Below, piece after piece: positions 4,963-55,655 of a stretch of DNA of 64,000 bases. Both the position numbers and the translations under genes were made by a program. The notes beneath the pieces were generated by a model. It did not search any database. It was not told the origin of the DNA and worked only from the letters and a program-made list of their open reading frames with translations. This DNA comes from Dehalococcoidia bacterium (GTDB lineage: Bacteria > Chloroflexota > Dehalococcoidia > Lucifugimonadales > UBA2985): the NCBI GenBank assembly GCA_034422115.1, contig DAOUJW010000021.1, positions 65,876 through 129,875 on the forward strand, read 5' to 3'. How positions within the stretch are numbered: position 1 is the stretch's first letter; every line of letters begins with the position of its first letter.

Positions 4963-6786
4963 CTAGGAGCCCCCCTCCACGTTCAGGGTTCGCGTCTCAA
5001 GGCCGAGGCCGGCTGCGCCGTTGCCGTCGGCGGACAGCGTTCCGCCGCCGTTGACCTCCATCTCCTGCGGGCGCAGCTGAAGCTCGTATATCTCCTGGTA
5101 CGGGCCAGGCACGCTCAATAGCTCCTCGTGGACGCCCTTCTGCACTATCCTGCCCTCTTTCATCACCAGTATCATGTCTGCGTTCTTCACGCTGCTCAGG
5201 CGATGGGCAATGACGAAGGTAGTCCTGCCCTGAATCACCGTATCCAACGCTTGGCGAATAAGATGCTCCGTCTCCGTATCGACGCTGGACGTGGAGTCGT
5301 CCAGGATGAGGATGGGCGGGTCCAGCAGCAGCGTGCGGGCGATGGCCAGTCGCTGCCTCTGGCCGCCGGAGAGGGTCACGCCCCGCTCTCCCACGTAGCT
5401 GTCGTACCCATCGGGCATGCTCTCAATGAAGTCGTGAAGCTGGGCGGCCTTGGCCGCTCGCACCACGTCCTCAAAGGGCGCGTCCACGGAGCCGTAGGCA
5501 ATGTTCGCCCTTATGGTAGAGGTGAAGATGAACACGTCCTGCTGCACAATGCCCACGTTGCGGCGCAGGGAGGCCAGGGTGGCGTCCCGGATGTCCATCC
5601 CGTCGATGGTGATGCGGCCTTCGGTTACGTCGTAGAAGCGGGGAATCAGGTGTACGACGGTGGTCTTGCCGCTGCCGGGCGCGCCGAGAATGGCGATCAC
5701 CTTCGTCCTGGGAGCTTCGAAGTCGACGCCCTTGAGCACCGGCGACAGCTCGCTGTACCCGAAGGACACGTCCTCAAAGCGCACGTCGCCACTCACGCGC
5801 CCCACGTCCAGGGCGTTCCGCTTCTCCTGCACCGGCGACTCCGCGTCCAGCACGTAGAAGATGCGCTCCCCGGAGGACATGGCGCGGGAGAAGCTGTTGA
5901 CTATCCAGGCCGTCATGCGCACGGGTATGGCCAGCAGGCCCATGTAGAGAAGGAAGGAGACCAGCTCACCCTCCGTCATGGCCCCGTCCACCACCTGCAG
6001 CGCGCCGAACCACAGGATGACGCCCGTTCCTCCAAGGAGGAAGAAGTTGTTGAGGGACGTGGTGATGGCCTGGAGCCTCTCGGCGGTGAAGCCGTACCGG
6101 GCCACCTCAGAGGCGTGGTAGTTGAACTTCCCCTTCTCCAGGTCTTCGGCGGCGAAGGCCTTGACCACCCGCTGCCCGGCCAGGTTCTCCTGGAGCACCG
6201 TGTTCAGGTATCCCATCTCCGTGCGCTCGGCCATCCAGTTGCGGCGCATCTCCAGCATGATGGTAGCCGTCCGCAGGATGATGAAGGGCACAAACACCAG
6301 GCTCATCAGGGCCAGCTTCCAGCTTGAGATGACCAGGATGACGCTGACGCCCAGGATGAGGAGCACCATGTAGCCGCCGCGTATCACGCCTCCCTGGATG
6401 AACATCCGCACCCCCTCCACGTCCGCAGTGGCCCGGGACATCAGGTCACCGGATCGCTGGTTGTCGTGGAAGCCGAAGCTGAGACGCTGCAGCCGCTCGT
6501 AGAAGGCGTTGCGGATGTCGTAGGCGACGCGCTGGCCCAGGGACTCGCCGAGGTACTGCTGTCCGTAGGCGGCCACGCCTCGGAGGGCGCTTATGACCAG
6601 TACCAGCACGGCCAGGAAGACGAGGGGCGCGACTTCGCCGGACTTGACCACCTCGTCAACGGCGGTGCCGAGTATGCGGGGTATGGCCAGGGCAAAGGCC
6701 GTTACGCCAATGGTGCAGACGTAGGCCAGCAGCAGTCTGTACTTGTACTTGAGGGAGAAGCGGACGAGCCTGAGCAGGATGCGCAT
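4963..6786 (-). CDS. ABC exporter, fused permease/ATP-binding subunit (partner of 3089..4960)
   Basis: Walker A GAPGSGKTT, signature LSGGQRQR, Walker B ILILDDSTS. Only a 2-nt gap to the downstream paralogue suggests a heterodimer. Confidence 0.9.
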   Translation of the reverse strand: MRILLRLVRFSLKYKYRLLLAYVCTIGVTAFALAIPRILGTAVDEVVKSGEVAPLVFLAVLVLVISALRGVAAYGQQYLGESLGQRVAYDIRNAFYERLQRLSFGFHDNQRSGDLMSRATADVEGVRMFIQGGVIRGGYMVLLILGVSVILVISSWKLALMSLVFVPFIILRTATIMLEMRRNWMAERTEMGYLNTVLQENLAGQRVVKAFAAEDLEKGKFNYHASEVARYGFTAERLQAITTSLNNFFLLGGTGVILWFGALQVVDGAMTEGELVSFLLYMGLLAIPVRMTAWIVNSFSRAMSSGERIFYVLDAESPVQEKRNALDVGRVSGDVRFEDVSFGYSELSPVLKGVDFEAPRTKVIAILGAPGSGKTTVVHLIPRFYDVTEGRITIDGMDIRDATLASLRRNVGIVQQDVFIFTSTIRANIAYGSVDAPFEDVVRAAKAAQLHDFIESMPDGYDSYVGERGVTLSGGQRQRLAIARTLLLDPPILILDDSTSSVDTETEHLIRQALDTVIQGRTTFVIAHRLSSVKNADMILVMKEGRIVQKGVHEELLSVPGPYQEIYELQLRPQEMEVNGGGTLSADGNGAAGLGLETRTLNVEGGS

Positions 6787-22903: not shown

Positions 22904-22979
22904 GCCCCTGTAGCTCAGGCGGATAGAGCATCGGTTTCCTAAACCGAGTGCCCCGGTTCGAGTCCGGGCAGGGGTACCA
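22904..22979 (+). tRNA. tRNA-Arg (anticodon CCT)
   Basis: Cloverleaf folded by hand: acceptor GCCCCTG/CAGGGGT, anticodon arm TCGGT-TTCCTAA-ACCGA, T arm CCCGG-TTCGAGT-CCGGG, encoded CCA. Confidence 0.9.
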
Positions 22980-23032
22980 TACTGAAAACAGGGACCGTCC
23001 CGGAGTATATTTCAGCAAGAGCAGAACGAGGT

Positions 23033-23329
23033 ATGCCTATGGCTAAGGAAGAGCGCAAACCCAGGCAGCTGCCGCGGCCCTTCGAGATGCACTGGGGCAA
23101 GGGGCAGATAGTGGAGGAGGCCACCTGTGTAGGGCAGTACCACGAGCCCGCCGTCCAGCTTCTGGAGTACGAAGACGGCGCGGAGTCCATACGGTTCTGC
23201 CACTACGATCTCAGGGGTCGGTTCCAGCGCAGCCCCCTGATGATCAGCGAGGATGTGATCGCAGAGCTGAGGGACTCGCTGGCCCAGGCACCTCGCCTTC
23301 GGGAGCTGCTGAAGAGACTGGTAGAGTAG
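23033..23329 (+). CDS. hypothetical protein (98 aa)
   Basis: ORF between tRNA-Arg and the tRNA-Trp cluster. No recognisable motif. Confidence 0.45.
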   Translation: MPMAKEERKPRQLPRPFEMHWGKGQIVEEATCVGQYHEPAVQLLEYEDGAESIRFCHYDLRGRFQRSPLMISEDVIAELRDSLAQAPRLRELLKRLVE

Positions 23330-23380
23330 GCATTACATCGGAATGCCGCCTGGGGATTTGGCCTGGAGCAGGTCCAGGGA

Positions 23381-23408
23381 TTCCACAAACTCCGCCTTAT
23401 GGTATACT
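23381..23408 (+). promoter_or_regulatory. candidate sigma-70 promoter for the tRNA Trp-Leu-Cys cluster
   Basis: TTCCAC (23381..23386), 16-nt spacer, TATACT (23403..23408), about 24 nt upstream of tRNA-Trp. Confidence 0.35.
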
Positions 23409-23431
23409 CTTTATCTGTCGTATTGGTGTGC

Positions 23432-23509
23432 AGGAGTGTAGCTCAGCCCGGTTAGAGCAACGGTCTCCAAAACCGTAGGTCGGGGGTTCGAATCCTCCCA
23501 CTCCTGCCA
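23432..23509 (+). tRNA. tRNA-Trp (anticodon CCA)
   Basis: Acceptor AGGAGTG/CACTCCT, anticodon arm ACGGT-CTCCAAA-ACCGT, T loop TTCGAAT, encoded CCA. Confidence 0.9.
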
Positions 23510-23533
23510 GAATCCCAGGACGCAAGAAGCCGT

Positions 23534-23620
23534 GCCGAGGTGGTGGAATTGGTAGACACGCGGTCTTGAGGGGGCCGTGGGCGTTAGCCCGTAGGAGTTC
23601 AAATCTCCTCCTCGGCACCA
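23534..23620 (+). tRNA. tRNA-Leu (anticodon GAG)
   Basis: Acceptor GCCGAGG/CCTCGGC, anticodon arm CGGTC-TTGAGGG-GGCCG, long variable arm, encoded CCA. Confidence 0.9.
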
Positions 23621-23643
23621 AAAACGTGGTAAAATAGCACAAG

Positions 23644-23719
23644 GGCGACGTAGCCAAGTGGTTAAGGCGGAGCTCTGCAAAAGCTCTATTCGGCGGTTCG
23701 AATCCGCCCGTCGCCTCCA
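23644..23719 (+). tRNA. tRNA-Cys (anticodon GCA)
   Basis: Acceptor GGCGACG/CGTCGCC, anticodon arm GAGCT-CTGCAAA-AGCTC, T arm GGCGG-TTCGAAT-CCGCC, encoded CCA. Confidence 0.9.
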
Positions 23720-23732
23720 AACATAAATTGCA

Positions 23733-23772
23733 AAAAGCAGAGCGGGGAAAAGCGCCCCTTCTGCTTTTTTAT
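23733..23772 (+). terminator. intrinsic terminator after the tRNA Trp-Leu-Cys cluster
   Basis: Hairpin AGCAGAGCGGGG-aaaagcg-CCCCTTCTGCT followed by TTTTTTATT. Confidence 0.75.
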
Positions 23773-23788
23773 TGAACCCTCCTGTTTT

Positions 23789-23871
23789 GCCCAGGTGGCG
23801 AAAGGGTAGACGCGGCGGACTTAAAATCCGCTCCCCGCAAGGGGGTGTGGGTTCGAATCCCTCCCTGGGCA
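23789..23871 (+). tRNA. tRNA-Leu (anticodon TAA), CCA not encoded
   Basis: Acceptor GCCCAGG/CCTGGGC, anticodon arm GCGGA-CTTAAAA-TCCGC, long variable arm. The 3' end reads A-CAG, so there is no genomic CCA. Confidence 0.85.
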
Positions 23872-23922
23872 CAGAACCCTTACCAGGTGTAACGGCTTGG
23901 CAAGACGGGATTGTGCCCCCGC

Positions 23923-47877: not shown

Positions 47878-48978
47878 CTAGGTCGCGCTGGGCTGAGCGA
47901 AGATGATGCGGCCCGCGGCCGTCTGGAGCACCCTGGTTATGGACACGTCCAGGTGGGAGTTGATGTACTTCTTGCCGCCCTCTATCACCACCATTGTGCC
48001 GTCGTCCAGGAAGGCCACGCCCTGGCCGATCTCCCTGCCCTCCTGGATAACCCTCACCATCATCTCCTCGCCGGGAATGACCACGGGCTTGAGGGCGTTG
48101 GCAAGCTCGTTGATGTTGAGCACCCTCACGCCCTGAAGCTCCGCCACGCGGTTCAGGTTGAAGTCTGTGGTGAGGATGGGCGCTCTCATGGTCTTGGCCA
48201 TCATCACCAGCTTGCCGTCCACCTCCGGCACGTCCCGCACGTCCTCGTCCAGGATCTGGATGGGCACGTCCTTCTCCTTGCGCAGCTTGTTGAGCATCTC
48301 CAGCCCTCTGCGACCCCGAGTGCGTCTGAGGGAGTCGCTGGAGTCTGCGATGTGCCGCAGCTCGTCCAGAACAAAGCGGGGGATGACCATCGTGCCCGCC
48401 ACGAAACCCGTCTTGCTGATGTCGGCAATCCTGCCGTCGATTATGGCGCTGGTGTCCATGAGGACGCGGCTGTTGGCGTTATACCGCCCGGCCTGCCCGC
48501 CTCGACGGGAGCGGTCCGGTAGGAACTGGGCAAAGTCCCGTTCCCTGGTCAACATAATCGCCATCCCCAGGGAGCCGAGTACAAGGCTCAGGCCGACGGG
48601 AACGGCCAGCCCCGGCCAGCCTGAGAGCCTGGAAAGACTTGTGGAAATCAGCGCCGCAACAACCAGGCCCAGTATCAGGCCAAGAGTCCCCGAAACCAGC
48701 GTGCTGAAGCTCATGTCCTGAAAGACCCTGCGAGTCCACTGGATTGGGGTGAGAACCAGATAGGGAGCAACAGCCAGACCGAAAACACCGCCGGTCAGCA
48801 TTCCGCCCAGGCCCCACGGGACGGGAGCCTCTTCATCCATCATCGACCCAACCCACAGCCCCAGAACCCATCCGCCCAGCCCGGCGAGCGCCAGCCCCAC
48901 CAGGCGCAGCCACCATTGAATACCCATATAGCCATCTCCTTCCGCCTCCTCCAGGGAGAACCAAATAATCCGGTCCAA
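47878..48978 (-). CDS. PIN/TRAM-domain membrane protein (YacL-like)
   Basis: N-terminal TM helices, PIN core (VLMDTSAIIDGRI) and a C-terminal TRAM-like region. Conserved position upstream of ispD-ispF. Confidence 0.8.
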   Translation of the reverse strand: MDRIIWFSLEEAEGDGYMGIQWWLRLVGLALAGLGGWVLGLWVGSMMDEEAPVPWGLGGMLTGGVFGLAVAPYLVLTPIQWTRRVFQDMSFSTLVSGTLGLILGLVVAALISTSLSRLSGWPGLAVPVGLSLVLGSLGMAIMLTRERDFAQFLPDRSRRGGQAGRYNANSRVLMDTSAIIDGRIADISKTGFVAGTMVIPRFVLDELRHIADSSDSLRRTRGRRGLEMLNKLRKEKDVPIQILDEDVRDVPEVDGKLVMMAKTMRAPILTTDFNLNRVAELQGVRVLNINELANALKPVVIPGEEMMVRVIQEGREIGQGVAFLDDGTMVVIEGGKKYINSHLDVSITRVLQTAAGRIIFAQPSAT

Positions 48979-49083
48979 AAACGGACACTAATACACCTTA
49001 AGTATAGCACACGCGCACTGGGCCAAAGCCAGACTCGTAATGCGAGGCAGCACGGGCGGGGGCACACACCTCTCCACCACCCC

Positions 49084-49290
49084 TGGATTCCTGCCTACGG
49101 AGACCTTTGCAAAACCTCTTCCCCCTTCAAGGGGGAAGATTGAGATGGGGGTGAGCCGTGCGGGGACACGCCTCTTTTTACCCCCATCCTGACCTTCCCC
49201 CGCAAGCGGGGGAAGGGAGTTAGGATTATTCAGAGGTCTCACTCCGCAGGAATGGGGGAGGATGTAGGGCGGTTCGCGAACCGCCCCTAC
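49084..49290. repeat. composite repeat cluster (families B/C-left end, E, D plus an extra hairpin)
   Basis: 49087..49115 is ATTCCTGC-ctacgga-GACCTTTGCAAAAC, a truncated MITE left end. 49117..49137 is CTTCCCCC-TTCAA-GGGGGAAG. 49176..49218 is family E. 49264..49290 is the family D palindrome. Confidence 0.8.
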
Positions 49291-49339
49291 AATGCGTTCA
49301 GACTGTTCAACAGGTTAATCTGTGCGATGACCTGGGCCT

Positions 49340-50053
49340 TCAGCCTGCCGGCCCGGTAATGGTTATGACGCGGCTGGTGTACATCAGGCGGGGCAACGCC
49401 TTCAGCGCCTCCAGGTTTGGGCGGTCTACGTTCAGGAGGCGCGGCAGTCGGATGCCCTCTAACCGCTCCATGTAGGGGCAGCGCTTCTCAAAGGCCAGCA
49501 GCGTGTGCCTGTCGCCGCCGAGCAGCATGTGGTCCAGAGGCCCCTCCCAAGCCTCCACCTGCGCCTGGAGCGTCTCAGCGGCCTTGTCCATGAGCGCCCG
49601 GGCCTGCTCCTCACGACGGCGGGCAAAGCGCCCGGAGGAGCTGCCGCCCTTCTTGTGTCTCCCCTTGACGAAGCGGCTGCCGACCTTGGACTGGGCCAGA
49701 CGCTCCCCCTCGAAGACCCCGACGGCGTAGCCGCTGAGACGCAGCAGCACGACCAGTACAGTTCGCTGTTTGTCCAGGAGATCGCGCAGAGGGCCGGTGT
49801 TCCAGCCGGAATGCTCCGCCTGAGTCTCCACGGGAAAGGGCGGTAGCACAGCCTGTGACTCCTCTGGGCTCCAGAAGAGGAAGGCACCCGTACCGGAGTC
49901 CCGGACAGCCTCCGCCAAATATTCGTCCAATGGAACAGAGCTGGGGAGACCGCCGGAGGGCGGAATGCAGAGCGTGCGACCGCTTTTGGCCGGATTGTGC
50001 CAGCCATCGGCCAGGCGGCGTAATGCTCCAGAGGGTAAGTCCTGTTGTTCCAT
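49340..50053 (-). CDS. Vms1/VLRF1-like release-factor-fold protein (Actinobacteria/Chloroflexi acVLRF1 type)
   Basis: LLRLSGYAVGVFEGERLAQSKVGSRFVKGRHKKGGSSSGRFARRREEQ matches, from memory, the acVLRF1 core (GYAVGVF...GR..GG...RFARRRE). 237 aa. Confidence 0.55.
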   Translation of the reverse strand: MEQQDLPSGALRRLADGWHNPAKSGRTLCIPPSGGLPSSVPLDEYLAEAVRDSGTGAFLFWSPEESQAVLPPFPVETQAEHSGWNTGPLRDLLDKQRTVLVVLLRLSGYAVGVFEGERLAQSKVGSRFVKGRHKKGGSSSGRFARRREEQARALMDKAAETLQAQVEAWEGPLDHMLLGGDRHTLLAFEKRCPYMERLEGIRLPRLLNVDRPNLEALKALPRLMYTSRVITITGPAG

Positions 50054-50079
50054 GTCAGGCTCCGGTTCGGAAATGGCCC

Positions 50080-52482
50080 TTACGCCAGCTCCACCACGGT
50101 AGCGCCGTCGGTGCGGTTGCCCTCCTCCGAGGCAAAGGAGTTCACCAGCGTGTGTCCGGTGAGATGCTGACGCAGGGCGTCTCGCAGCGCGCCCGTGCCC
50201 ACGCCATGCACCAGGCGCACCGACGAGAGACCCGCCAGAGCCGCCCTGTCCAGGAAGCGATCCAGCCTGTCCAGCGCGTCCACCACCCGCACGCCGCGAA
50301 GGTCAAGATCGCGCTCCGCGGGCGTCTCGGCGGCGGGGGGTCTGGCGGCGGACGCGGCTCGCTGCCCAGGCGCGGCGGCCACCCTCTGCTCTATCTCGTC
50401 CAGGGACACTCTGAGTCTCACGGAGCCCAGCCCAAGCTCCACGTCGGACTCTTGCCTGGGCTCCGAGAGCACCTCAAGGGGCTGGCCGATGCCCCGCACC
50501 TGCACCATGTCTCCGGGCTTCAGCTGCCTGGTCCAACCCAGGCGCGCATCGTCTCCCCTCCACGCAGGCGATTGCAGGTCTCTCCTGACGCGCGAGACCT
50601 CCTGCCTGCGCCTCTGTATCTCCCGGGAGTCCTGGGCCGGCCCCGACGCCGGAAGCGACCGCTCAGCCTGGCGCAGCCGCCGCCACACCTCCTCCACCCT
50701 CGCCTGGAGCTCCCGGCGCGCCTCCACCATCATCGCTTCCTTCTCCCGCTCCAGGTCTGCCAGCCTCGTCTCAAGCTCCTGCCGCAGCCCCTGCGCTCGG
50801 TCCAGCTCCTCACGGATTTCCCTGTGCCTCTCCACGGCCTGGTGACGCTCTCGCTGGAGGTCGTTCAACAGGCTCTCCGTCTGCCTGAAGGCGCCCGACA
50901 GCAGGGCGCGGGCGTCGTCGATAACGTTCTGGGGCATACCCAGCCTGGTGGCGATGGTGAGGGCGTAGCTCCTCTCCGGCAGGCCGATGTTGAGCCTGTA
51001 GGTGGGCGCGAGGGTGTCCGGGTCAAGCTCCACGCTTGCGTTGACCATCCCCGGCCTCTCCTGCACAAAGGCCGCAAGGTCCCGGTGGTGGGAGGTGGCG
51101 ACCACCGGAATGCCCCGCCGGTTAAGCTCCATGAGGATGGACTTGGCAAGGGCCGCGCCCTCCTCCGGGTCGGTGCTGGTTCCCAGCTCGTCTATCAGCA
51201 CCAGCGACCGGCGCGTGGCGTGGTCCAGGAACCTGCTCAGGTTCTGCACGTGGGAGCTGAAGGTGGAGAGGGAGCGCTGGATGCTCTGCTGATCGCCTAT
51301 GTCTGCGTAGAAGCCGTCGAAGACGCTGACGACCGCCTCTGTAGCCGGGACGTGCAGACCCGCCTGGGCCATAGCCGTCAGCAGGCCGGCCATCTTCAGC
51401 GACACCGTCTTGCCTCCGGCGTTGGGGCCGGTGATGAGGATGATTGATGAGTCGTCGCCAAGCTGGATGGTGTTGGGCACGACGTCTCCGGCCAGCAGCG
51501 GGTGGCGCGCCTCCGACAGGAGGATGTACGGCTTATCGGACTGCGCCAGCGAGACGGGCGCGCCCCTAATCGACGCCGAGTATCTGGCCTTGGCCATTGC
51601 CAGGTCTATGCGCGCCAGCATGTCCATGCCCAGAAGCAGATCGTCCTTCCGGTCGCCCACCGCGCCGGACAGCTCCCGCAGGACGCGCTCCTCCTCACGC
51701 ACGGCCGCCAGTCGCAGCTCCTGCCACTGGTTGCCCGCGGGAATGGTCTGCATTGGCTCCACAAACAGGGTCGCGCCGCTGTCGGACACGTCGTGGACAA
51801 TGCCCTGGACGTTGTGGCGCATCTCCGCCTTCACCAGCAGCACCATGCGGCCCTGGCGCTGGGTTATGAGCGCCTCCTGCAGGACGCCCCTGCCGTACAG
51901 CCCCCGCATCATCCTCTGCAGGGACCGCTCCAGCGCGTTGAAGGTCTCCCGGGAGCGGATGCGCATCTCCGCAAGCTGTGGCGATGCGCCGTCCAGCACT
52001 TCGCCGTCCCGGCCGATGGCGCGGGACAGCTGCCGTTCCAGGTCTCGGAAGTCTGGTATCTGCCGTGCGAGATGGGACAGGATGCCGAGGTCGCTCTGAG
52101 AACCGACTACCGACCGCGCGCTTCCAAGGGCTCTGGCAGTGCCGGCGACGTCCCTGAGGTCTGCGCCGGGCAGTGTGCCCCCCAGCGCGGCGCTCTCCAC
52201 CGGCTGGCGCACGTCCCGGGCGGCGCTGAACTCCACGTCCCTGCTGCGCTCAAGGAGGCGCACCGCCTCCGATGTCTCCTGCTGGCGGCGCTGCACGTCC
52301 TGGCGTGCGTAGGACGGCCGCAGGCCCAGGGCCAGCTCCCTGGCCATCGGCGTTTGAGTGTGGCCCGCCAGGCGCTCCGTCACCTGGTGGAACTCAAGAA
52401 GCTCCAGGGCCCTCTCACGGAGGTCATCTTCGGGTGCGTCGATGGTGGCGTTGTCCATGCGGCCTTCGCTTGCGGGAATCAC
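50080..52482 (-). CDS. mutS2: endonuclease MutS2 (MutS ATPase core plus C-terminal Smr domain)
   Basis: Walker A GPNAGGKTV, MutS domain V, long coiled-coil, C-terminal Smr (LDLRGVRVVDALDRLDRFLD...LVHGVGTGALR). Confidence 0.93.
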   Translation of the reverse strand: MIPASEGRMDNATIDAPEDDLRERALELLEFHQVTERLAGHTQTPMARELALGLRPSYARQDVQRRQQETSEAVRLLERSRDVEFSAARDVRQPVESAALGGTLPGADLRDVAGTARALGSARSVVGSQSDLGILSHLARQIPDFRDLERQLSRAIGRDGEVLDGASPQLAEMRIRSRETFNALERSLQRMMRGLYGRGVLQEALITQRQGRMVLLVKAEMRHNVQGIVHDVSDSGATLFVEPMQTIPAGNQWQELRLAAVREEERVLRELSGAVGDRKDDLLLGMDMLARIDLAMAKARYSASIRGAPVSLAQSDKPYILLSEARHPLLAGDVVPNTIQLGDDSSIILITGPNAGGKTVSLKMAGLLTAMAQAGLHVPATEAVVSVFDGFYADIGDQQSIQRSLSTFSSHVQNLSRFLDHATRRSLVLIDELGTSTDPEEGAALAKSILMELNRRGIPVVATSHHRDLAAFVQERPGMVNASVELDPDTLAPTYRLNIGLPERSYALTIATRLGMPQNVIDDARALLSGAFRQTESLLNDLQRERHQAVERHREIREELDRAQGLRQELETRLADLEREKEAMMVEARRELQARVEEVWRRLRQAERSLPASGPAQDSREIQRRRQEVSRVRRDLQSPAWRGDDARLGWTRQLKPGDMVQVRGIGQPLEVLSEPRQESDVELGLGSVRLRVSLDEIEQRVAAAPGQRAASAARPPAAETPAERDLDLRGVRVVDALDRLDRFLDRAALAGLSSVRLVHGVGTGALRDALRQHLTGHTLVNSFASEEGNRTDGATVVELA

Positions 52483-52599: not shown

Positions 52600-53385
52600 T
52601 CAGGAGTGGGTTTCGACGAAGGTGCGCATGGCGTCGAAGTACTGCTCACGGCCACGAAGCAGGAGGTCGTTGTGGCCCGCCATCGGGATTACCTCAATGG
52701 CCTTGTCCTCGGAGCTGACAGACTCGTAGAACTCAAAGGCCCTCTCAACGAGTATCAGGTCGTCCCGCTCGCCGTGAATGACCAGCAGGGGCAGGGTGAC
52801 GGAGCGCACCTTCTCCTCGTGCAGGCGGAGCATCTCGGCGATAACCGGCTCATCCGGAGGCAGGCCCCATCGCTCTATCGTGCGCCCAATGCTGGCGGAG
52901 CCGCTCTCCATTATCAGCCCGGCTATCTCGTCCTGGAAGCGGGCGGTGATCTCCAGCGCAGAGTGGCAGCCCATTGAGCGCCCCTTCACGAAGATGGGGC
53001 CGGTGAACCCCTCGGACGCCAGCATCCGCTTGAAGTACGTGAACACCTCCGCGGCGTCGGAGGTCATTGTGGAGAAGGTTGGCAGCCCGCTGCTCTGGCC
53101 GTAGCCCCGGAAGTCGGCCACAAAGAAGCTCATGCCCGCCCGGTGGTACGAGGGGACCAGGGTGTCGTACTGGCAGGCCACCTCCCCGTTGCCGTGGAAG
53201 AAGAGGATGTTGGGCGAATTCGGCTCAAGGGGGTAGAACCTGGCGGACAGTGACACGCCGGTGCCCACGGGGATGAGGTGGTCGGTGGCGCCGGCGGGCG
53301 GCTGCGACCATATCCGCTGGGGGTAGAACATGGCCTGGCTCATAAGCGGGTGGTCCAGGGGTGAGTAGTCTATGGGCTGGTACAT
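52600..53385 (-). CDS. alpha/beta hydrolase
   Basis: Nucleophile elbow GRSMG, HGNG oxyanion region and a C-terminal GHND. 261 aa. Confidence 0.8.
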   Translation of the reverse strand: MYQPIDYSPLDHPLMSQAMFYPQRIWSQPPAGATDHLIPVGTGVSLSARFYPLEPNSPNILFFHGNGEVACQYDTLVPSYHRAGMSFFVADFRGYGQSSGLPTFSTMTSDAAEVFTYFKRMLASEGFTGPIFVKGRSMGCHSALEITARFQDEIAGLIMESGSASIGRTIERWGLPPDEPVIAEMLRLHEEKVRSVTLPLLVIHGERDDLILVERAFEFYESVSSEDKAIEVIPMAGHNDLLLRGREQYFDAMRTFVETHS

Positions 53386-53603
53386 GACGCCTCCTGTCGC
53401 GTGTTGACTCTATCAGGAGGCGGGCGGGTTGTCCAGCAGTTCATAATTGCGGTGGTGCATGGGTTTCGGCTACCTTACGCACGCCCTAGAAAAATGCAAG
53501 TAGGGCTGGCAAAACTGCTAATCCCAGTGCAGACGCCTGTTACACCCTCTTGTTTACTTGCAGTACCAGTCCATAACATCTGAGGTCCCTCTGCCTCGCG
53601 CGC

Positions 53604-53633
53604 TTGACAACCTTTCCCGCCATTTCTTATACT
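53604..53633 (+). promoter_or_regulatory. sigma-70-type promoter of groESL
   Basis: TTGACA (53604..53609), 18-nt spacer, TATACT (53628..53633), directly upstream of the CIRCE element. Confidence 0.6.
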
Positions 53634-53643
53634 ACGGCAGGAT

Positions 53644-53670
53644 TTAGCAGTCGGAGTCTGCGACTGCTAA
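53644..53670 (+). promoter_or_regulatory. CIRCE operator (HrcA binding site), variant TTAGCAGTC-N9-GACTGCTAA
   Basis: Perfect 9-bp inverted repeat with a 9-nt spacer between the promoter and groES. The canonical form is TTAGCACTC-N9-GAGTGCTAA. Confidence 0.8.
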
Positions 53671-53709: not shown

Positions 53710-54009
53710 ATGCAGGTGGCACGGAATTTCCAACCCTTGGGTGACCGCGTAGTGGTGAGGCCCATAGAGCGGGAAGAGGTCTCCGCCGGCGGCATCGTCC
53801 TACCGGACACCGCCAAAGAGAAGCCCCAGGAGGGAGAGGTGATGGCCGTGGGCAAGGGCCGGGTTGCCGACGATGGAAAGGTGATAGAGATGGAGTCCAA
53901 GGTGGGCGACATTGTCATCTACTCCAGGTACGCCGGCAGCGAGTTCCGGGAGGACGGGGAGGACTTCCTGGTCCTCAGGGAGAGCGACATCCTGGCGAAG
54001 ATCACCTAA
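53710..54009 (+). CDS. groES: co-chaperonin GroES
   Basis: FQPLGDRVVVRP...GGIVLPDTAKEKPQEGEV. GGAGG at 53704..53708 favours GTG 53716 as the true start. Confidence 0.93.
   Translation: MQVARNFQPLGDRVVVRPIEREEVSAGGIVLPDTAKEKPQEGEVMAVGKGRVADDGKVIEMESKVGDIVIYSRYAGSEFREDGEDFLVLRESDILAKIT

Positions 54010-54041: not shown

Positions 54042-55655
<1,614 letters not shown>

What the first reader, a model, noticed from the sequence alone, without database searches (positions are those of the whole stretch)
49340..52482. Vms1/VLRF1-like release-factor-fold gene immediately downstream of mutS2: possible ribosome-rescue/quality-control pair
MutS2 (50080..52482, MutS ATPase plus Smr) is followed 26 nt later, on the same strand, by a 237-aa protein. 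Its core, GYAVGVFEGERLAQSKV...GRHKKGGSSSGRFARRREEQ, resembles the Actinobacteria/Chloroflexi VLRF1 (acVLRF1) clade of eRF1-fold proteins. Eukaryotic members of that fold (Vms1/ANKZF1) release nascent chains from stalled large subunits.

MutS2 has been shown in Bacillus to sense and split collided ribosomes. A MutS2-VLRF1 operon would place a collision sensor/splitter next to a candidate peptidyl-tRNA-releasing factor. That suggests an RQC route distinct from, or additional to, RqcH/RqcP.

The loop where I recall a catalytic Gln (GxxQ) in this family reads GGSSSG here. Either the enzyme uses different chemistry or my alignment is off.
Basis: inference. Interest (0 to 1): 0.7.

Follow-up and report, generated by a model that had tools for sequence, protein, structure and literature searches.

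The report
MutS2 paired with Vms1-like release factor
A Chloroflexi bacterium encodes MutS2, which splits collided ribosomes, right next to a small eRF1/Vms1-like protein, and this pairing recurs in about 90 genomes of two phyla, pointing to an unstudied bacterial way of freeing stuck nascent chains, here with the usual catalytic glutamine replaced by serine.

Summary
On the minus strand, mutS2 (50080..52482) is followed after 26 nt, with a GGAG ribosome-binding site, by a 237-aa gene (49340..50053). This gene matches Pfam acVLRF1 (102 bits against a cut-off of 27) and models confidently as an eRF1 M-domain fold.

The adjacency is not chance. Of 244 non-redundant acVLRF1 loci from species-representative genomes, 89 have mutS2 (once a stand-alone Smr gene) beside them. 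Four geometries occur, in Dehalococcoidia and in Gaiellales-type Actinomycetota. No other neighbour recurs across lineages. Of the 80 MutS2 genes closest to the window's, 34 have the VLRF gene alongside.

The missing glutamine is real. The family motif GGxSQ reads GGSSSG here. About a third of family diversity has Ser or Ala at that position. The loop has not decayed: G136, G137 and S139 are invariant in all 244 sequences. The mutS2 link holds for both Gln and Gln-less forms.

Best reading: a two-gene split-then-release module. MutS2 splits collided ribosomes, and the VLRF protein resolves the peptidyl-tRNA left on the 50S. This is inferred, not shown.

Untested: catalysis without Gln, and independence from RqcH.

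The parts
50080..52482 (-). mutS2 (rqcU-type collision sensor and ribosome-splitting ATPase). 800 aa from a GTG; the source-contig gene call starts at the ATG at 52458 (792 aa).
   Evidence: TIGR01069 mutS2 at 758 bits against a cut-off of 400. Pfam MutS_V (residues 348-528), MSSS/KOW-like SH3 (656-697) and Smr (726-799). Walker A GPNAGGKT and Walker B LIDELG are present in the translation. No MutS I/II mismatch-recognition domains were hit.
50899..51441 (-). ABC-type ATPase domain (MutS_V) of MutS2
   Evidence: PF00488, E = 8.7e-35, residues 348-528. In B. subtilis MutS2 this domain is essential for splitting disomes (PMC10897456).
50086..50307 (-). Smr domain of MutS2 with DLR and HGxG motifs (LDLRG ... 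VHGVGTG)
   Evidence: PF01713, E = 6e-19; translation. It has the same DLR/HGxG type as B. subtilis MutS2, where these residues serve ribosome binding, not mRNA cleavage (PMC10897456).
50054..50079 (-). 26-nt intergenic spacer with a GGAG Shine-Dalgarno 7 nt upstream of the ATG. No promoter-like or terminator-like site, so co-transcription is likely.
   Evidence: Sequence read; promoter/terminator scan.
49340..50053 (-). acVLRF1-family gene: 237 aa, an eRF1 M-domain (RNase H fold) release-factor-like protein with a short N-terminal extension
   Evidence: PF18859 at 102.2 bits against 27.1; NF041024 at 115.2 bits, below its cut-off of 125; weak eRF1_2 match. AlphaFold2 pLDDT 91, pTM 0.85. Foldseek best matches are eRF1/aRF1 at E = 4e-9, then Balon, Pelota and Vms1-60S (6r84_R, E = 3e-3). 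Profile hit to aRF1 3agk at E = 9e-12.
49631..49648 (-). Catalytic-loop codons G136-G137-S138-S139-S140-G141 (GGSSSG), where the family motif is GGxSQ
   Evidence: Translation; alignments. G136, G137 and S139 are invariant in 244 of 244 homologues. Position 140 is Gln in 114 and Ser/Ala in 130. The model's lowest-confidence segment (pLDDT 56) covers residues ~131-140, as expected for a flexible loop.

Best explanation
mutS2 and the acVLRF1 gene form a co-transcribed, functionally coupled ribosome-rescue module of the split-then-release type. Step 1 is established for B. subtilis MutS2 and inferred here from orthology and identical domain architecture. The MutS2 dimer recognises collided ribosomes through its KOW-like and Smr domains and uses its ABC ATPase to split the stalled ribosome, leaving a 50S subunit that still carries peptidyl-tRNA. 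Step 2 is inferred. The 237-aa acVLRF1 protein has the eRF1 M-domain but no stop-codon-reading domain and no C domain. It docks on that obstructed 50S through its conserved basic residues (R105, K123, K130, H133, R142, R145, R147). It inserts its Gly-Gly loop towards the peptidyl-transferase centre and severs the nascent chain from the tRNA, either by ester hydrolysis as eRF1 does or by cutting the 3'-CCA as Vms1/ANKZF1 does. This frees the subunit. In the window's clade the loop Gln is replaced by Ser. I think the protein most likely still engages the peptidyl-transferase centre and remains active with altered chemistry or specificity, because the loop is the most constrained part of the protein. 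This last point is the weakest step.
For: Shown here:
(a) Both family assignments hold, as does the eRF1-like fold.
(b) The organisation is operon-like: 26-nt gap, a Shine-Dalgarno site, no intervening promoter-like or terminator-like signals.
(c) The neighbourhood is conserved. 89 of 244 non-redundant acVLRF1 loci have mutS2 or Smr adjacent, in four geometries: Dehalococcoidia mutS2->VLRF (17, median gap 64 nt); Dehalococcoidia VLRF->mutS2 (30, median 114 nt); Actinomycetota mutS2->VLRF (14, median 11 nt, some overlapping); Actinomycetota convergent (21, stop-to-stop about 2 nt). All other neighbours are lineage-local.
(d) From the MutS2 side, 34 of the 80 closest MutS2 loci carry VLRF, essentially all of those at 45% identity or more.
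(e) One locus (L020) has a stand-alone 113-aa Smr protein instead of MutS2 next to VLRF. This ties the link to the collision-sensing domain.
(f) The loop plus helix start has the lowest entropy of the protein in every group: 0.37 against 1.26 bits in Gln-less Dehalococcoidia, and 0.22 against 0.90 bits in Actinomycetota. G136, G137 and S139 are invariant. The basic residues are universally conserved.
(g) There is no defence-system signature.
From the literature: MutS2 splits collided ribosomes (PMC10897456). Vms1/ANKZF1 releases chains from 60S, dependent on the GxxQ Gln, by CCA cleavage (PMC7026593). [quoted passage not shown]
From my own knowledge, not checked here: in bacterial RF1/RF2 and in eRF1 the two glycines are far more critical than the Gln side chain, whose replacement leaves substantial release activity.
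Against: There is no experimental datum for any acVLRF1 protein. The residue that Vms1 activity depends on is absent here, and Ala occupies the same column in many Actinomycetota, so that column cannot be catalytic in those clades. About 64% of the sampled VLRF loci have no mutS2 within 4-6 kb, and at least one assembly has the two genes on different contigs (CBDESW01). The factor therefore does not need to be encoded with MutS2. A published survey found mutS2 in 0 of 3,213 Actinobacteriota genomes (PMC11633108), while the family is named for Actinobacteria, so many acVLRF1 proteins probably work without MutS2. B. subtilis resolves the same intermediate with RqcH/RqcP plus Pth and has no VLRF. 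Convergent gene pairs are not operons. Non-independence: the linked loci may trace to only a few ancestral juxtapositions.
Confidence: 0.5

Rival explanations
1. Non-catalytic partner. The Gln-less VLRF protein is a Pelota/Dom34-like inactive release-factor paralogue. It occupies the A site or peptidyl-transferase centre of the stalled ribosome, or of the split 50S, and assists or licenses the MutS2 ABC ATPase in splitting or anti-reassociation. This would mirror Pelota-ABCE1. The peptide would be released by Pth or another factor.
For: The Gln on which Vms1 depends is missing, and Ala is tolerated at that column. Foldseek also matches Pelota/Dom34 and the non-catalytic bacterial eRF1 homologue Balon. 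Park et al. explicitly draw the parallel between inactive eRF1-family members and ABC-ATPase splitters (PMC10897456). Burroughs and Aravind interpret Gln-less bacterial eRF1 families as non-catalytic ribosome binders (PMC6514570).
Against: In the Gln-less baeRF families the whole loop is poorly conserved (PMC6514570). Here the loop is the best-conserved segment, with invariant GG and Ser. The protein lacks the N and C domains through which Pelota reaches the decoding centre and its GTPase or ATPase partners. The mutS2 link is equally present for canonical GGxSQ relatives, 30 loci, so the pairing did not arise with loss of catalysis. B. subtilis MutS2 splits disomes in vitro without any partner (PMC10897456).
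Confidence: 0.25
2. Stand-alone rescue factor with loose genomic association. acVLRF1 is a single-component specialised release factor, ArfB-like, as Burroughs and Aravind proposed. It acts independently of MutS2. The adjacency would reflect co-regulation of stress-related translation genes, or inherited synteny, rather than a substrate hand-off.
For: About two thirds of loci are unlinked, including 83 Gln-type Dehalococcoidia loci. The tree suggests the linked loci form one super-clade, so there may have been few independent origins. The family occurs in Actinobacteria, which by a published survey lack mutS2. No fusion proteins appear among the best 150 family representatives.
Against: Adjacency survived at least three rearrangements of order and orientation, and is present in two phyla, while every other neighbour changed. 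Gaps are often 0-40 nt or overlapping. A Smr-only gene substitutes for mutS2 once. Within the closest MutS2 clade nearly every gene has VLRF beside it.
Confidence: 0.15
3. Hibernation or ribosome-protection factor. The protein is a Balon-like A-site binder that parks on idle or damaged ribosomes, unrelated to nascent-chain release.
For: Foldseek matches to Balon on M. smegmatis and P. urativorans 70S ribosomes at E around 1e-6 to 1e-5. No catalytic Gln.
Against: Balon has three domains and about 360 aa. This protein has only the M-domain plus a short extension. The matches to eRF1/aRF1 are better, and the profile hit is to acVLRF1, not to a Balon-type family. A link to a collision-splitting ATPase is not expected for a hibernation factor.
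Confidence: 0.05

Closest known systems
acVLRF-1 family (Pfam PF18859; NCBIfam NF041024; Burroughs and Aravind 2019, PMC6514570)
   Same: Significant profile match. Stand-alone protein of about 240 aa. eRF1 M-domain (RNase H) fold with a short N-terminal extension and no stop-codon-binding domain. Chloroflexi/Actinobacteria range. Gly-Gly loop followed by an Arg-rich helix.
   Different: The family-defining GGxSQ motif reads GGSSSG, so there is no Gln. It scores just below the NCBIfam cut-off (115 against 125 bits). [quoted passage not shown]
Eukaryotic Vms1 / ANKZF1 (eVLRF-1)
   Same: Same superfamily and clade, according to the literature. The proposed role is the same: removing the nascent chain-tRNA from a large subunit after ribosome splitting. 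There is a weak but real fold match to Vms1 on the 60S (6r84_R).
   Different: No Rei1 zinc finger, ankyrin repeats, VIM or treble-clef domains. No GxuQ Gln. Direct similarity is weak: Foldseek E = 3e-3 and no sequence-profile hit at E <= 1. The upstream splitter would be MutS2 rather than the RQT complex or Pelota-ABCE1, and there is no ubiquitin or Cdc48 context.
B. subtilis RQC pathway (MutS2/RqcU -> RqcH + RqcP -> Pth)
   Same: Orthologous MutS2 with an identical domain set and DLR/HGxG Smr motifs. The same problem has to be solved: a 50S obstructed by peptidyl-tRNA.
   Different: B. subtilis has no VLRF. It exposes the ester bond by Ala-tailing and uses Pth. Here a loop-bearing eRF1-type factor is encoded with MutS2. 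No rqcH or rqcP was found in the window or in any fetched flank, and the rest of the genome was not testable.
Archaeal/eukaryotic aRF1/eRF1 and Pelota-ABCE1
   Same: These are the best structural and profile matches (aRF1 3agk E = 9e-12; eRF1 Foldseek E = 4e-9). The segment HKxGGxSxxRFxR is recognisably shared. The pairing of an eRF1-fold protein with an ABC-type ATPase is conceptually parallel.
   Different: Single-domain core. No codon recognition, no GTPase-binding C domain. MutS2's ATPase is of the MutS clade, not the ABCE1 clade.
ArfB (bacterial stand-alone GGQ rescue factor)
   Same: A small stand-alone factor predicted to bring a Gly-Gly loop to the peptidyl-transferase centre of stalled complexes without codon recognition.
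   Different: Unrelated fold (bacterial RF peptidyl-hydrolase domain). ArfB acts on 70S ribosomes with an empty mRNA channel through a C-terminal helix, and it keeps the GGQ motif.

Membership tests
acVLRF1 (PF18859 / NF041024) | Profile HMM match above the curated threshold | tested here: met
   PF18859: 102.2 bits against a gathering score of 27.1, E = 3.3e-29, covering profile positions 1-129 of 130. NF041024: 115.2 bits, E = 3e-33, which is below that model's strict 'exception' cut-off of 125. NCBI names close homologues 'Vms1/Ankzf1 family peptidyl-tRNA hydrolase'.
acVLRF1 (PF18859 / NF041024) | eRF1 M-domain (RNase H fold) core without the stop-codon-binding N domain and without the C domain; short N-terminal extension | tested here: met
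   237 aa. AlphaFold2 pLDDT 91. Foldseek best matches are eRF1/aRF1, with isolated eRF1 M-domains aligning over about 130 columns at rmsd 3.5-5 A. The best 150 family representatives are all 130-290 aa.
acVLRF1 (PF18859 / NF041024) | GGxSQ catalytic-loop motif (PMC6514570) | tested here: not met
   The loop is GGSSSG, with Ser at the Gln column (S140) and at the eRF1 GGQ column (S138). This is shared by a whole subclade, and by about a third of family representatives, which have Ser or Ala there. It is therefore a variant inside the family rather than an outsider.
acVLRF1 (PF18859 / NF041024) | Actinobacteria/Chloroflexi phyletic range | tested here: met
   The closest loci are all Dehalococcoidia/Chloroflexota MAGs (up to 90% identity). 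More distant ones are Gaiellales/Thermoleophilia Actinomycetota.
acVLRF1 (PF18859 / NF041024) | Peptidyl-tRNA hydrolase or tRNA-cleaving activity on ribosomal complexes | not testable with these tools
   I found no experimental characterisation of any family member in the searchable literature.
Vms1/ANKZF1 (eVLRF-1) | GxuQ loop with the Gln required for release | tested here: not met
   There is no Gln in the loop. The requirement for Q295 is stated in PMC7026593.
Vms1/ANKZF1 (eVLRF-1) | Accessory domains (Rei1-type zinc finger, ankyrin repeats, VIM, treble-clef) | tested here: not met
   The Pfam scan finds only the acVLRF1, baeRF_family10, eRF1_2 and baeRF_family2 families on one stretch.
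Vms1/ANKZF1 (eVLRF-1) | Direct sequence or structure similarity to Vms1 | tested here: inconclusive
   Foldseek 6r84_R: E = 3.1e-3, TM 0.38, ranked 44th, behind eRF1, aRF1, Balon and Pelota. No Vms1 chain appears among the PDB profile hits at E <= 1.
MutS2 (TIGR01069; RqcU-type ribosome splitter) | Equivalog HMM above cut-off, with the architecture core/lever-clamp-ABC ATPase-KOW-Smr and without MutS I/II domains | tested here: met
   TIGR01069: 758 bits against 400, covering 2-790 of 790. MutS_V, MSSS and Smr domains are present, with no MutS_I or MutS_II hit. The architecture is as described for B. subtilis MutS2.
MutS2 (TIGR01069; RqcU-type ribosome splitter) | Smr DLR and HGxG motifs; intact Walker A and B | tested here: met
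   LDLRG and VHGVGTG. GPNAGGKT and LIDELG in the translation.
MutS2 (TIGR01069; RqcU-type ribosome splitter) | ATP-dependent splitting of collided ribosomes | not testable with these tools
   Shown only for B. subtilis MutS2 (PMC10897456).
Canonical bacterial RQC (RqcH/RqcP) | Presence of an NFACT protein (RqcH) and an S4 protein (RqcP) in the genome | tested here: inconclusive
   [quoted passage not shown] The RqcH query was verified as exact against PDB 7aqc (1272 bits). The rest of the genome could not be searched.
Pelota/Dom34 and Balon (non-catalytic eRF1 paralogues) | Three-domain architecture with a degenerate or absent Gly-Gly-Gln loop | tested here: not met
   Single core domain. The GG loop is retained and is the most conserved segment. 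Fold matches to these proteins are weaker than to eRF1/aRF1.

The most novel reading that the evidence does not exclude
Dehalococcoidia and Gaiellales-type Actinomycetota run a minimal two-component RQC branch that bypasses RqcH/RqcP alanine tailing. MutS2 splits the collided ribosome, and a bacterial Vms1 analogue reaches into the peptidyl-transferase centre of the obstructed 50S and releases the chain directly. In about a third of the family, including this gene, release uses a Gln-independent GGSS(S/A) loop. That would be either release-factor chemistry carried by the backbone and Ser, or a different reaction such as CCA cleavage. It would show that the 'universal' catalytic Gln of class-1 release-factor-like proteins is dispensable in nature.
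Probability: 0.3. Interest if true: 0.85.

Novelty: new variant of a known kind. Interest (0 to 1): 0.66.

Why it matters
How the nascent chain is finally released is the least understood step of bacterial ribosome-associated quality control. The literature I could read says no dedicated bacterial release factor is known, and that Pth does the job in Bacillus after Ala-tailing.

A conserved gene pair joins the collision-splitting ATPase MutS2 to a Vms1/eRF1-like protein. This gives a concrete, testable candidate for a dedicated factor in two large and mostly uncultured lineages. It also ties the bacterial pathway to the eukaryotic Vms1 step.

These MutS2-positive Actinomycetota contrast with a published survey in which none of 3,213 Actinobacteriota genomes had mutS2 or rqcH.

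Separately, one subfamily keeps a perfectly conserved Gly-Gly-Ser loop but has swapped the catalytic Gln for Ser or Ala. This is a natural experiment on what the Gln of release-factor-like proteins is for.

The caveat is that everything beyond family membership and gene linkage is inference.

Tried and rejected
1. A correlation between Gln loss and mutS2 linkage. My first three VLRF-side scans suggested 52 of 115 Gln-less loci against 4 of 71 Gln-type loci were linked. The MutS2-side scan then revealed 26 further VLRF->mutS2 pairs with canonical GGTSQ loops, which the peptide patterns had missed. I reject the correlation as a sampling artefact.

2. Other conserved neighbours. Candidates were 2-hydroxyacid dehydrogenase, an ABC ATPase, UvrD, MetRS, a luciferase-like oxidoreductase, an AMP-ligase, and an AsnC-aminotransferase of 769 aa that I suspected might be a divergent MutS2. 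All are lineage-local and unrelated. No tRNA-repair gene (CCA-adding enzyme, cyclic phosphodiesterase, RtcB) recurred.

3. Defence-system membership. PADLOC finds nothing for the VLRF protein.

4. Fusion (Rosetta-stone) evidence. There is none among the best 150 family representatives.

5. rqcH/rqcP. Absent from the window and all fetched flanks. The mBio survey supplement is truncated and holds no Dehalococcoidia rows.

6. Co-occurrence test by assembly accession.

7. Literature. Searches for acVLRF1, VLRF1, Vms1 + MutS2, and Vms1 + RqcH + Smr + neighbourhood found no report of the pairing. Park et al. 2023 does not mention it. Cerullo et al. 2022 and Filbeck et al. 2022 are not held, so prior mention there cannot be excluded.

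8. A structure prediction of the MutS2-VLRF complex was considered but not attempted.

9. RNA elements. Rfam finds nothing in or near the pair.

Full report
OBSERVATION. The finding is on the minus strand and is accurate.
- mutS2 occupies 50080..52482, 800 aa from a GTG. Independent gene calls on the 150.5-kb source metagenome scaffold give 792 aa, so the ATG at 52458 is the probable start.
- After the TAA stop comes a 26-nt spacer with a GGAG Shine-Dalgarno 7 nt before the ATG of a 237-aa ORF, 49340..50053.
- A consensus scan finds no promoter-like or terminator-like site between the genes. The nearest minus-strand promoter-like site (53435..53407) lies upstream of the preceding alpha/beta-hydrolase gene.
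- The quoted peptide FVKGRHKKGGSSSGRFARRREEQ is encoded at 49604..49672.

WHAT THE TWO PROTEINS ARE.
The 800-aa protein is an orthodox MutS2.
- TIGR01069 scores 758 bits against a cut-off of 400.
- Pfam finds the MutS_V ATPase, the MSSS (KOW-like SH3) domain and Smr, with no mismatch-recognition domains.
- Walker A and B are intact, and the Smr domain has the DLR and HGxG motifs.
- This is the architecture and motif type of B. subtilis MutS2. That protein binds collided disomes through its KOW and Smr domains and splits them with its ATPase, without cutting mRNA (PMC10897456).

The 237-aa protein belongs to the acVLRF1 family.
- It matches Pfam acVLRF1 (PF18859) at 102.2 bits against a gathering score of 27.1. 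Weaker overlapping hits are baeRF_family10 and eRF1 domain 2.
- The NCBIfam acVLRF1 model scores 115 bits, just under its strict cut-off of 125.
- NCBI names near relatives 'Vms1/Ankzf1 family peptidyl-tRNA hydrolase'.
- An AlphaFold2 model built on 24 homologues is confident: pLDDT 91, pTM 0.85. The only soft segment is the loop at about residues 131-140.
- Foldseek against the PDB returns eRF1/aRF1 first (E = 4e-9). It then returns the bacterial eRF1 homologue Balon, Pelota/Dom34 and, at E = 3e-3, yeast Vms1 on the 60S subunit.
- A profile of the family hits archaeal aRF1 (3agk) at E = 9e-12 and no Vms1 chain at E <= 1.
'Vms1-like' is a clade name from the literature; the direct resemblance is closer to aRF1/eRF1.

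THE GLUTAMINE.
- Burroughs and Aravind define the acVLRF-1 loop motif as GGxSQ (PMC6514570). Vms1 release activity depends on the equivalent Gln, Q295 (PMC7026593).
- In alignments with Gln-bearing relatives the window protein reads GGSSSG. The aRF1/eRF1 alignment shows that the classical GGQ Gln corresponds to S138 and the VLRF-type Gln to S140. Both are Ser.
- Across 244 non-redundant homologues, position 140 is Gln in 114 and Ser or Ala in 130.
- That sample is biased towards my queries. Among the best 150 representatives from an exhaustive profile search of 1.84 billion cluster representatives, 95 have Gln, 31 Ala and 14 Ser, with 10 unscored. Roughly a third of family diversity therefore lacks the Gln, a fact not mentioned in the family description.
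- The loop is not decaying. G136, G137 and S139 are invariant in 244 of 244 sequences. The loop plus helix start has the lowest entropy in the protein in every group: 0.37 against 1.26 bits in Gln-less Dehalococcoidia, 0.22 against 0.90 bits in Actinomycetota, and 0.58 against 1.68 bits in Gln-type Dehalococcoidia.
- A handful of positions switch together with the Gln: R108G, Y128F, A135K and E181D. Seven basic residues stay universal.
- Because archaeal aRF1 and the other VLRF families carry the Gln, Ser/Ala is the derived state. This is inference from outgroup comparison.

THE NEIGHBOURHOOD. I surveyed one genome per GTDB species.
- Three VLRF-side scans were run, seeded with window-like, Gaiellales-like and Gln-type Dehalococcoidia alignments. 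They gave 220 non-redundant loci with 6-kb flanks.
- Unbiased clustering of all flanking ORFs in the first 81 loci put MutS2 first (25 loci). The runner-up reached 13 loci, and all the others were lineage-local metabolic or housekeeping genes.
- A MutS2-side scan of the 80 closest MutS2 genes found VLRF adjacent in 34. These were essentially all the loci at 45% identity or more to the window MutS2. They included 26 pairs that the VLRF-side patterns had missed because their loop is GGTSQ.
- Combined, 89 of 244 non-redundant VLRF loci are linked:
  - 17 Dehalococcoidia mutS2->VLRF, the window's arrangement, all Gln-less, median gap 64 nt;
  - 30 Dehalococcoidia VLRF->mutS2, all with canonical Gln, median gap 114 nt;
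  - 14 Actinomycetota mutS2->VLRF, median gap 11 nt, some overlapping;
  - 21 Actinomycetota convergent pairs with stop codons about 2 nt apart, plus 6 within 0.5-5 kb;
  - 1 locus (L020) where a stand-alone 113-aa Smr protein, rather than MutS2, is convergent with VLRF.
- For one particular gene to be an immediate neighbour by chance is roughly a 1-in-1,000 event per genome.
- A neighbour-joining tree groups the linked clades together, so the link may have arisen only a few times. It has nevertheless been kept through at least three changes of order or orientation and in two phyla, while every other neighbour turned over. That is the classical signature of functional coupling.
- An early impression that linkage is enriched among Gln-less forms was a sampling artefact and is withdrawn.

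MECHANISM (inferred).
- MutS2 produces 50S subunits obstructed by peptidyl-tRNA. In Bacillus these are Ala-tailed by RqcH/RqcP, and the chain is then released by Pth. [quoted passage not shown]
- An eRF1 M-domain protein with no codon-reading domain, encoded with the splitter, is the natural candidate to finish the job. It would dock on the 50S through its Arg/Lys-rich helix and put the Gly-Gly loop into the peptidyl-transferase centre.
- For the 30 Gln-bearing linked relatives this is a straightforward analogy to Vms1 or eRF1.
- For the window's Gln-less clade two readings remain. Either it is still active, with backbone- or Ser-based chemistry or tRNA cleavage, or it has become a non-catalytic binder working with the MutS2 ATPase in the manner of Pelota-ABCE1.
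- I favour retained engagement of the peptidyl-transferase centre for two reasons. The loop is under the strongest constraint in the protein. Also, from my own knowledge and not checked here, the glycines matter far more than the Gln side chain in RF1/RF2 and eRF1.
- Tolerance of Ala at that column shows that this residue is not itself catalytic in these clades.
- Confidence that the pair is functionally coupled is about 0.8. Confidence in the full split-then-release model is about 0.5.

WHAT COULD NOT BE SETTLED.
- Whether this is an RqcH-independent route. B. subtilis RqcH and RqcP queries find nothing in the window, the 238 VLRF loci or the 80 MutS2 loci. The genomes themselves could not be searched.
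- A published survey reports rqcH in 26 and mutS2 in 35 of 41 Chloroflexota genomes, and neither gene in 3,213 Actinobacteriota genomes (PMC11633108). This makes the MutS2-positive Gaiellales-type genomes found here notable, but it does not resolve the question.
- About two thirds of VLRF loci are unlinked, and at least one assembly has the two genes on separate contigs. VLRF can therefore be encoded, and probably can work, apart from MutS2.

NOVELTY.
- Both protein families are known and annotated.
- What appears new is (i) the conserved mutS2-acVLRF1 gene pair and (ii) the widespread, strongly constrained Gln-less loop variant.
- Burroughs and Aravind 2019 describe prokaryotic VLRF-1 as stand-alone and independent of RQC components, and never mention MutS2 or Smr. 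Park et al. 2023 does not mention the pairing either. No paper in the searchable library holds both concepts in this sense.
- I class it as a new variant of a known kind, with interest of about 0.66. It gives a concrete candidate for a missing step in bacterial RQC, and a natural test of the role of the release-factor Gln. It rests on comparative genomics only.

Noticed in passing
window 53604-53670 (+), upstream of groES 53710..54009 and groEL 54048..55655: A near-consensus sigma-70-type promoter (TTGACA, 18-nt spacer, TATACT; 11 of 12 matches) is followed by a CIRCE operator, TTAGCAGTC-N9-GACTGCTAA, with 2 mismatches to consensus and none expected by chance. This is a standard HrcA-regulated chaperonin operon, divergent from the hydrolase-mutS2-VLRF strand.
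   Followed up: partly
L020 6726-7067 (-), convergent with the VLRF gene at 5869-6708 (+): In one Dehalococcoidia genome whose VLRF gene has no mutS2 beside it, a stand-alone 113-aa Smr-domain protein (…VRVIHGKGTGVLK…) sits 35 nt downstream in convergent orientation, followed by a 455-aa gene that looks selA-like from its translation (not profile-checked). It is a single case, but it suggests the link is to the Smr (collision-sensing) function.
   Followed up: partly
Loci L067, L075, L078, L084-L157 (Gaiellales/Thermoleophilia Actinomycetota MAGs): These Actinomycetota carry full-length mutS2 (about 780 aa, with Smr). A published survey found mutS2 in 0 of 3,213 Actinobacteriota genomes (PMC11633108). 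In 41 of the 80 actinobacterial VLRF loci, mutS2 lies beside or within about 5 kb of the VLRF gene, which raises the possibility that the pair was acquired together.
   Followed up: partly
window 47878-48978 (-) and the gap 48979-49339: The gene downstream of VLRF is a membrane-anchored PIN + TRAM protein (YCF81_N by the contig's Pfam labels). It is separated from VLRF by an unusually long untranslated gap of about 360-410 nt with no Rfam hit. A weak terminator-like hairpin lies at 48986..48973. The gene is syntenic only in the two closest relatives (L001, L002), so it is probably not part of the module.
   Followed up: partly
window 52600-53385 (-): An alpha/beta-hydrolase (Hydrolase_4/S33-type, 261 aa) lies 117 nt upstream of mutS2 on the same strand, with the only minus-strand promoter-like site (53435..53407) in front of it. 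It is conserved upstream of mutS2 in only four close relatives (L001, L002, L004, L014). It may be co-transcribed, but it is not part of the conserved pair.
   Followed up: partly
window 22904-23872 (+): A cluster of five tRNA genes: Arg-CCT, Trp-CCA, Leu-GAG, Cys-GCA and Leu-TAA. No tmRNA was found in the window.
   Followed up: no
VLRF alignment positions 108, 128, 135, 181 (window numbering): Four positions switch in concert with loss of the loop Gln: R108->G, Y128->F, A135->K (two residues before the GG) and E181->D. They are conserved on both sides of the switch. This may mark a remodelled active site or contact surface. It is unexplained.
   Followed up: partly
L041-L052 group (11 Dehalococcoidia loci, loop GGSSSN): A Gln-less Dehalococcoidia subclade nests among the Gln-type mutS2-linked clades in the neighbour-joining tree, yet has no mutS2 within 6 kb. 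As in most Actinomycetota (GGSSAN/GGSSSN), an Asn follows the substituted position and might supply the missing amide. The window clade (GGSSSG/A) has no such residue.
   Followed up: no
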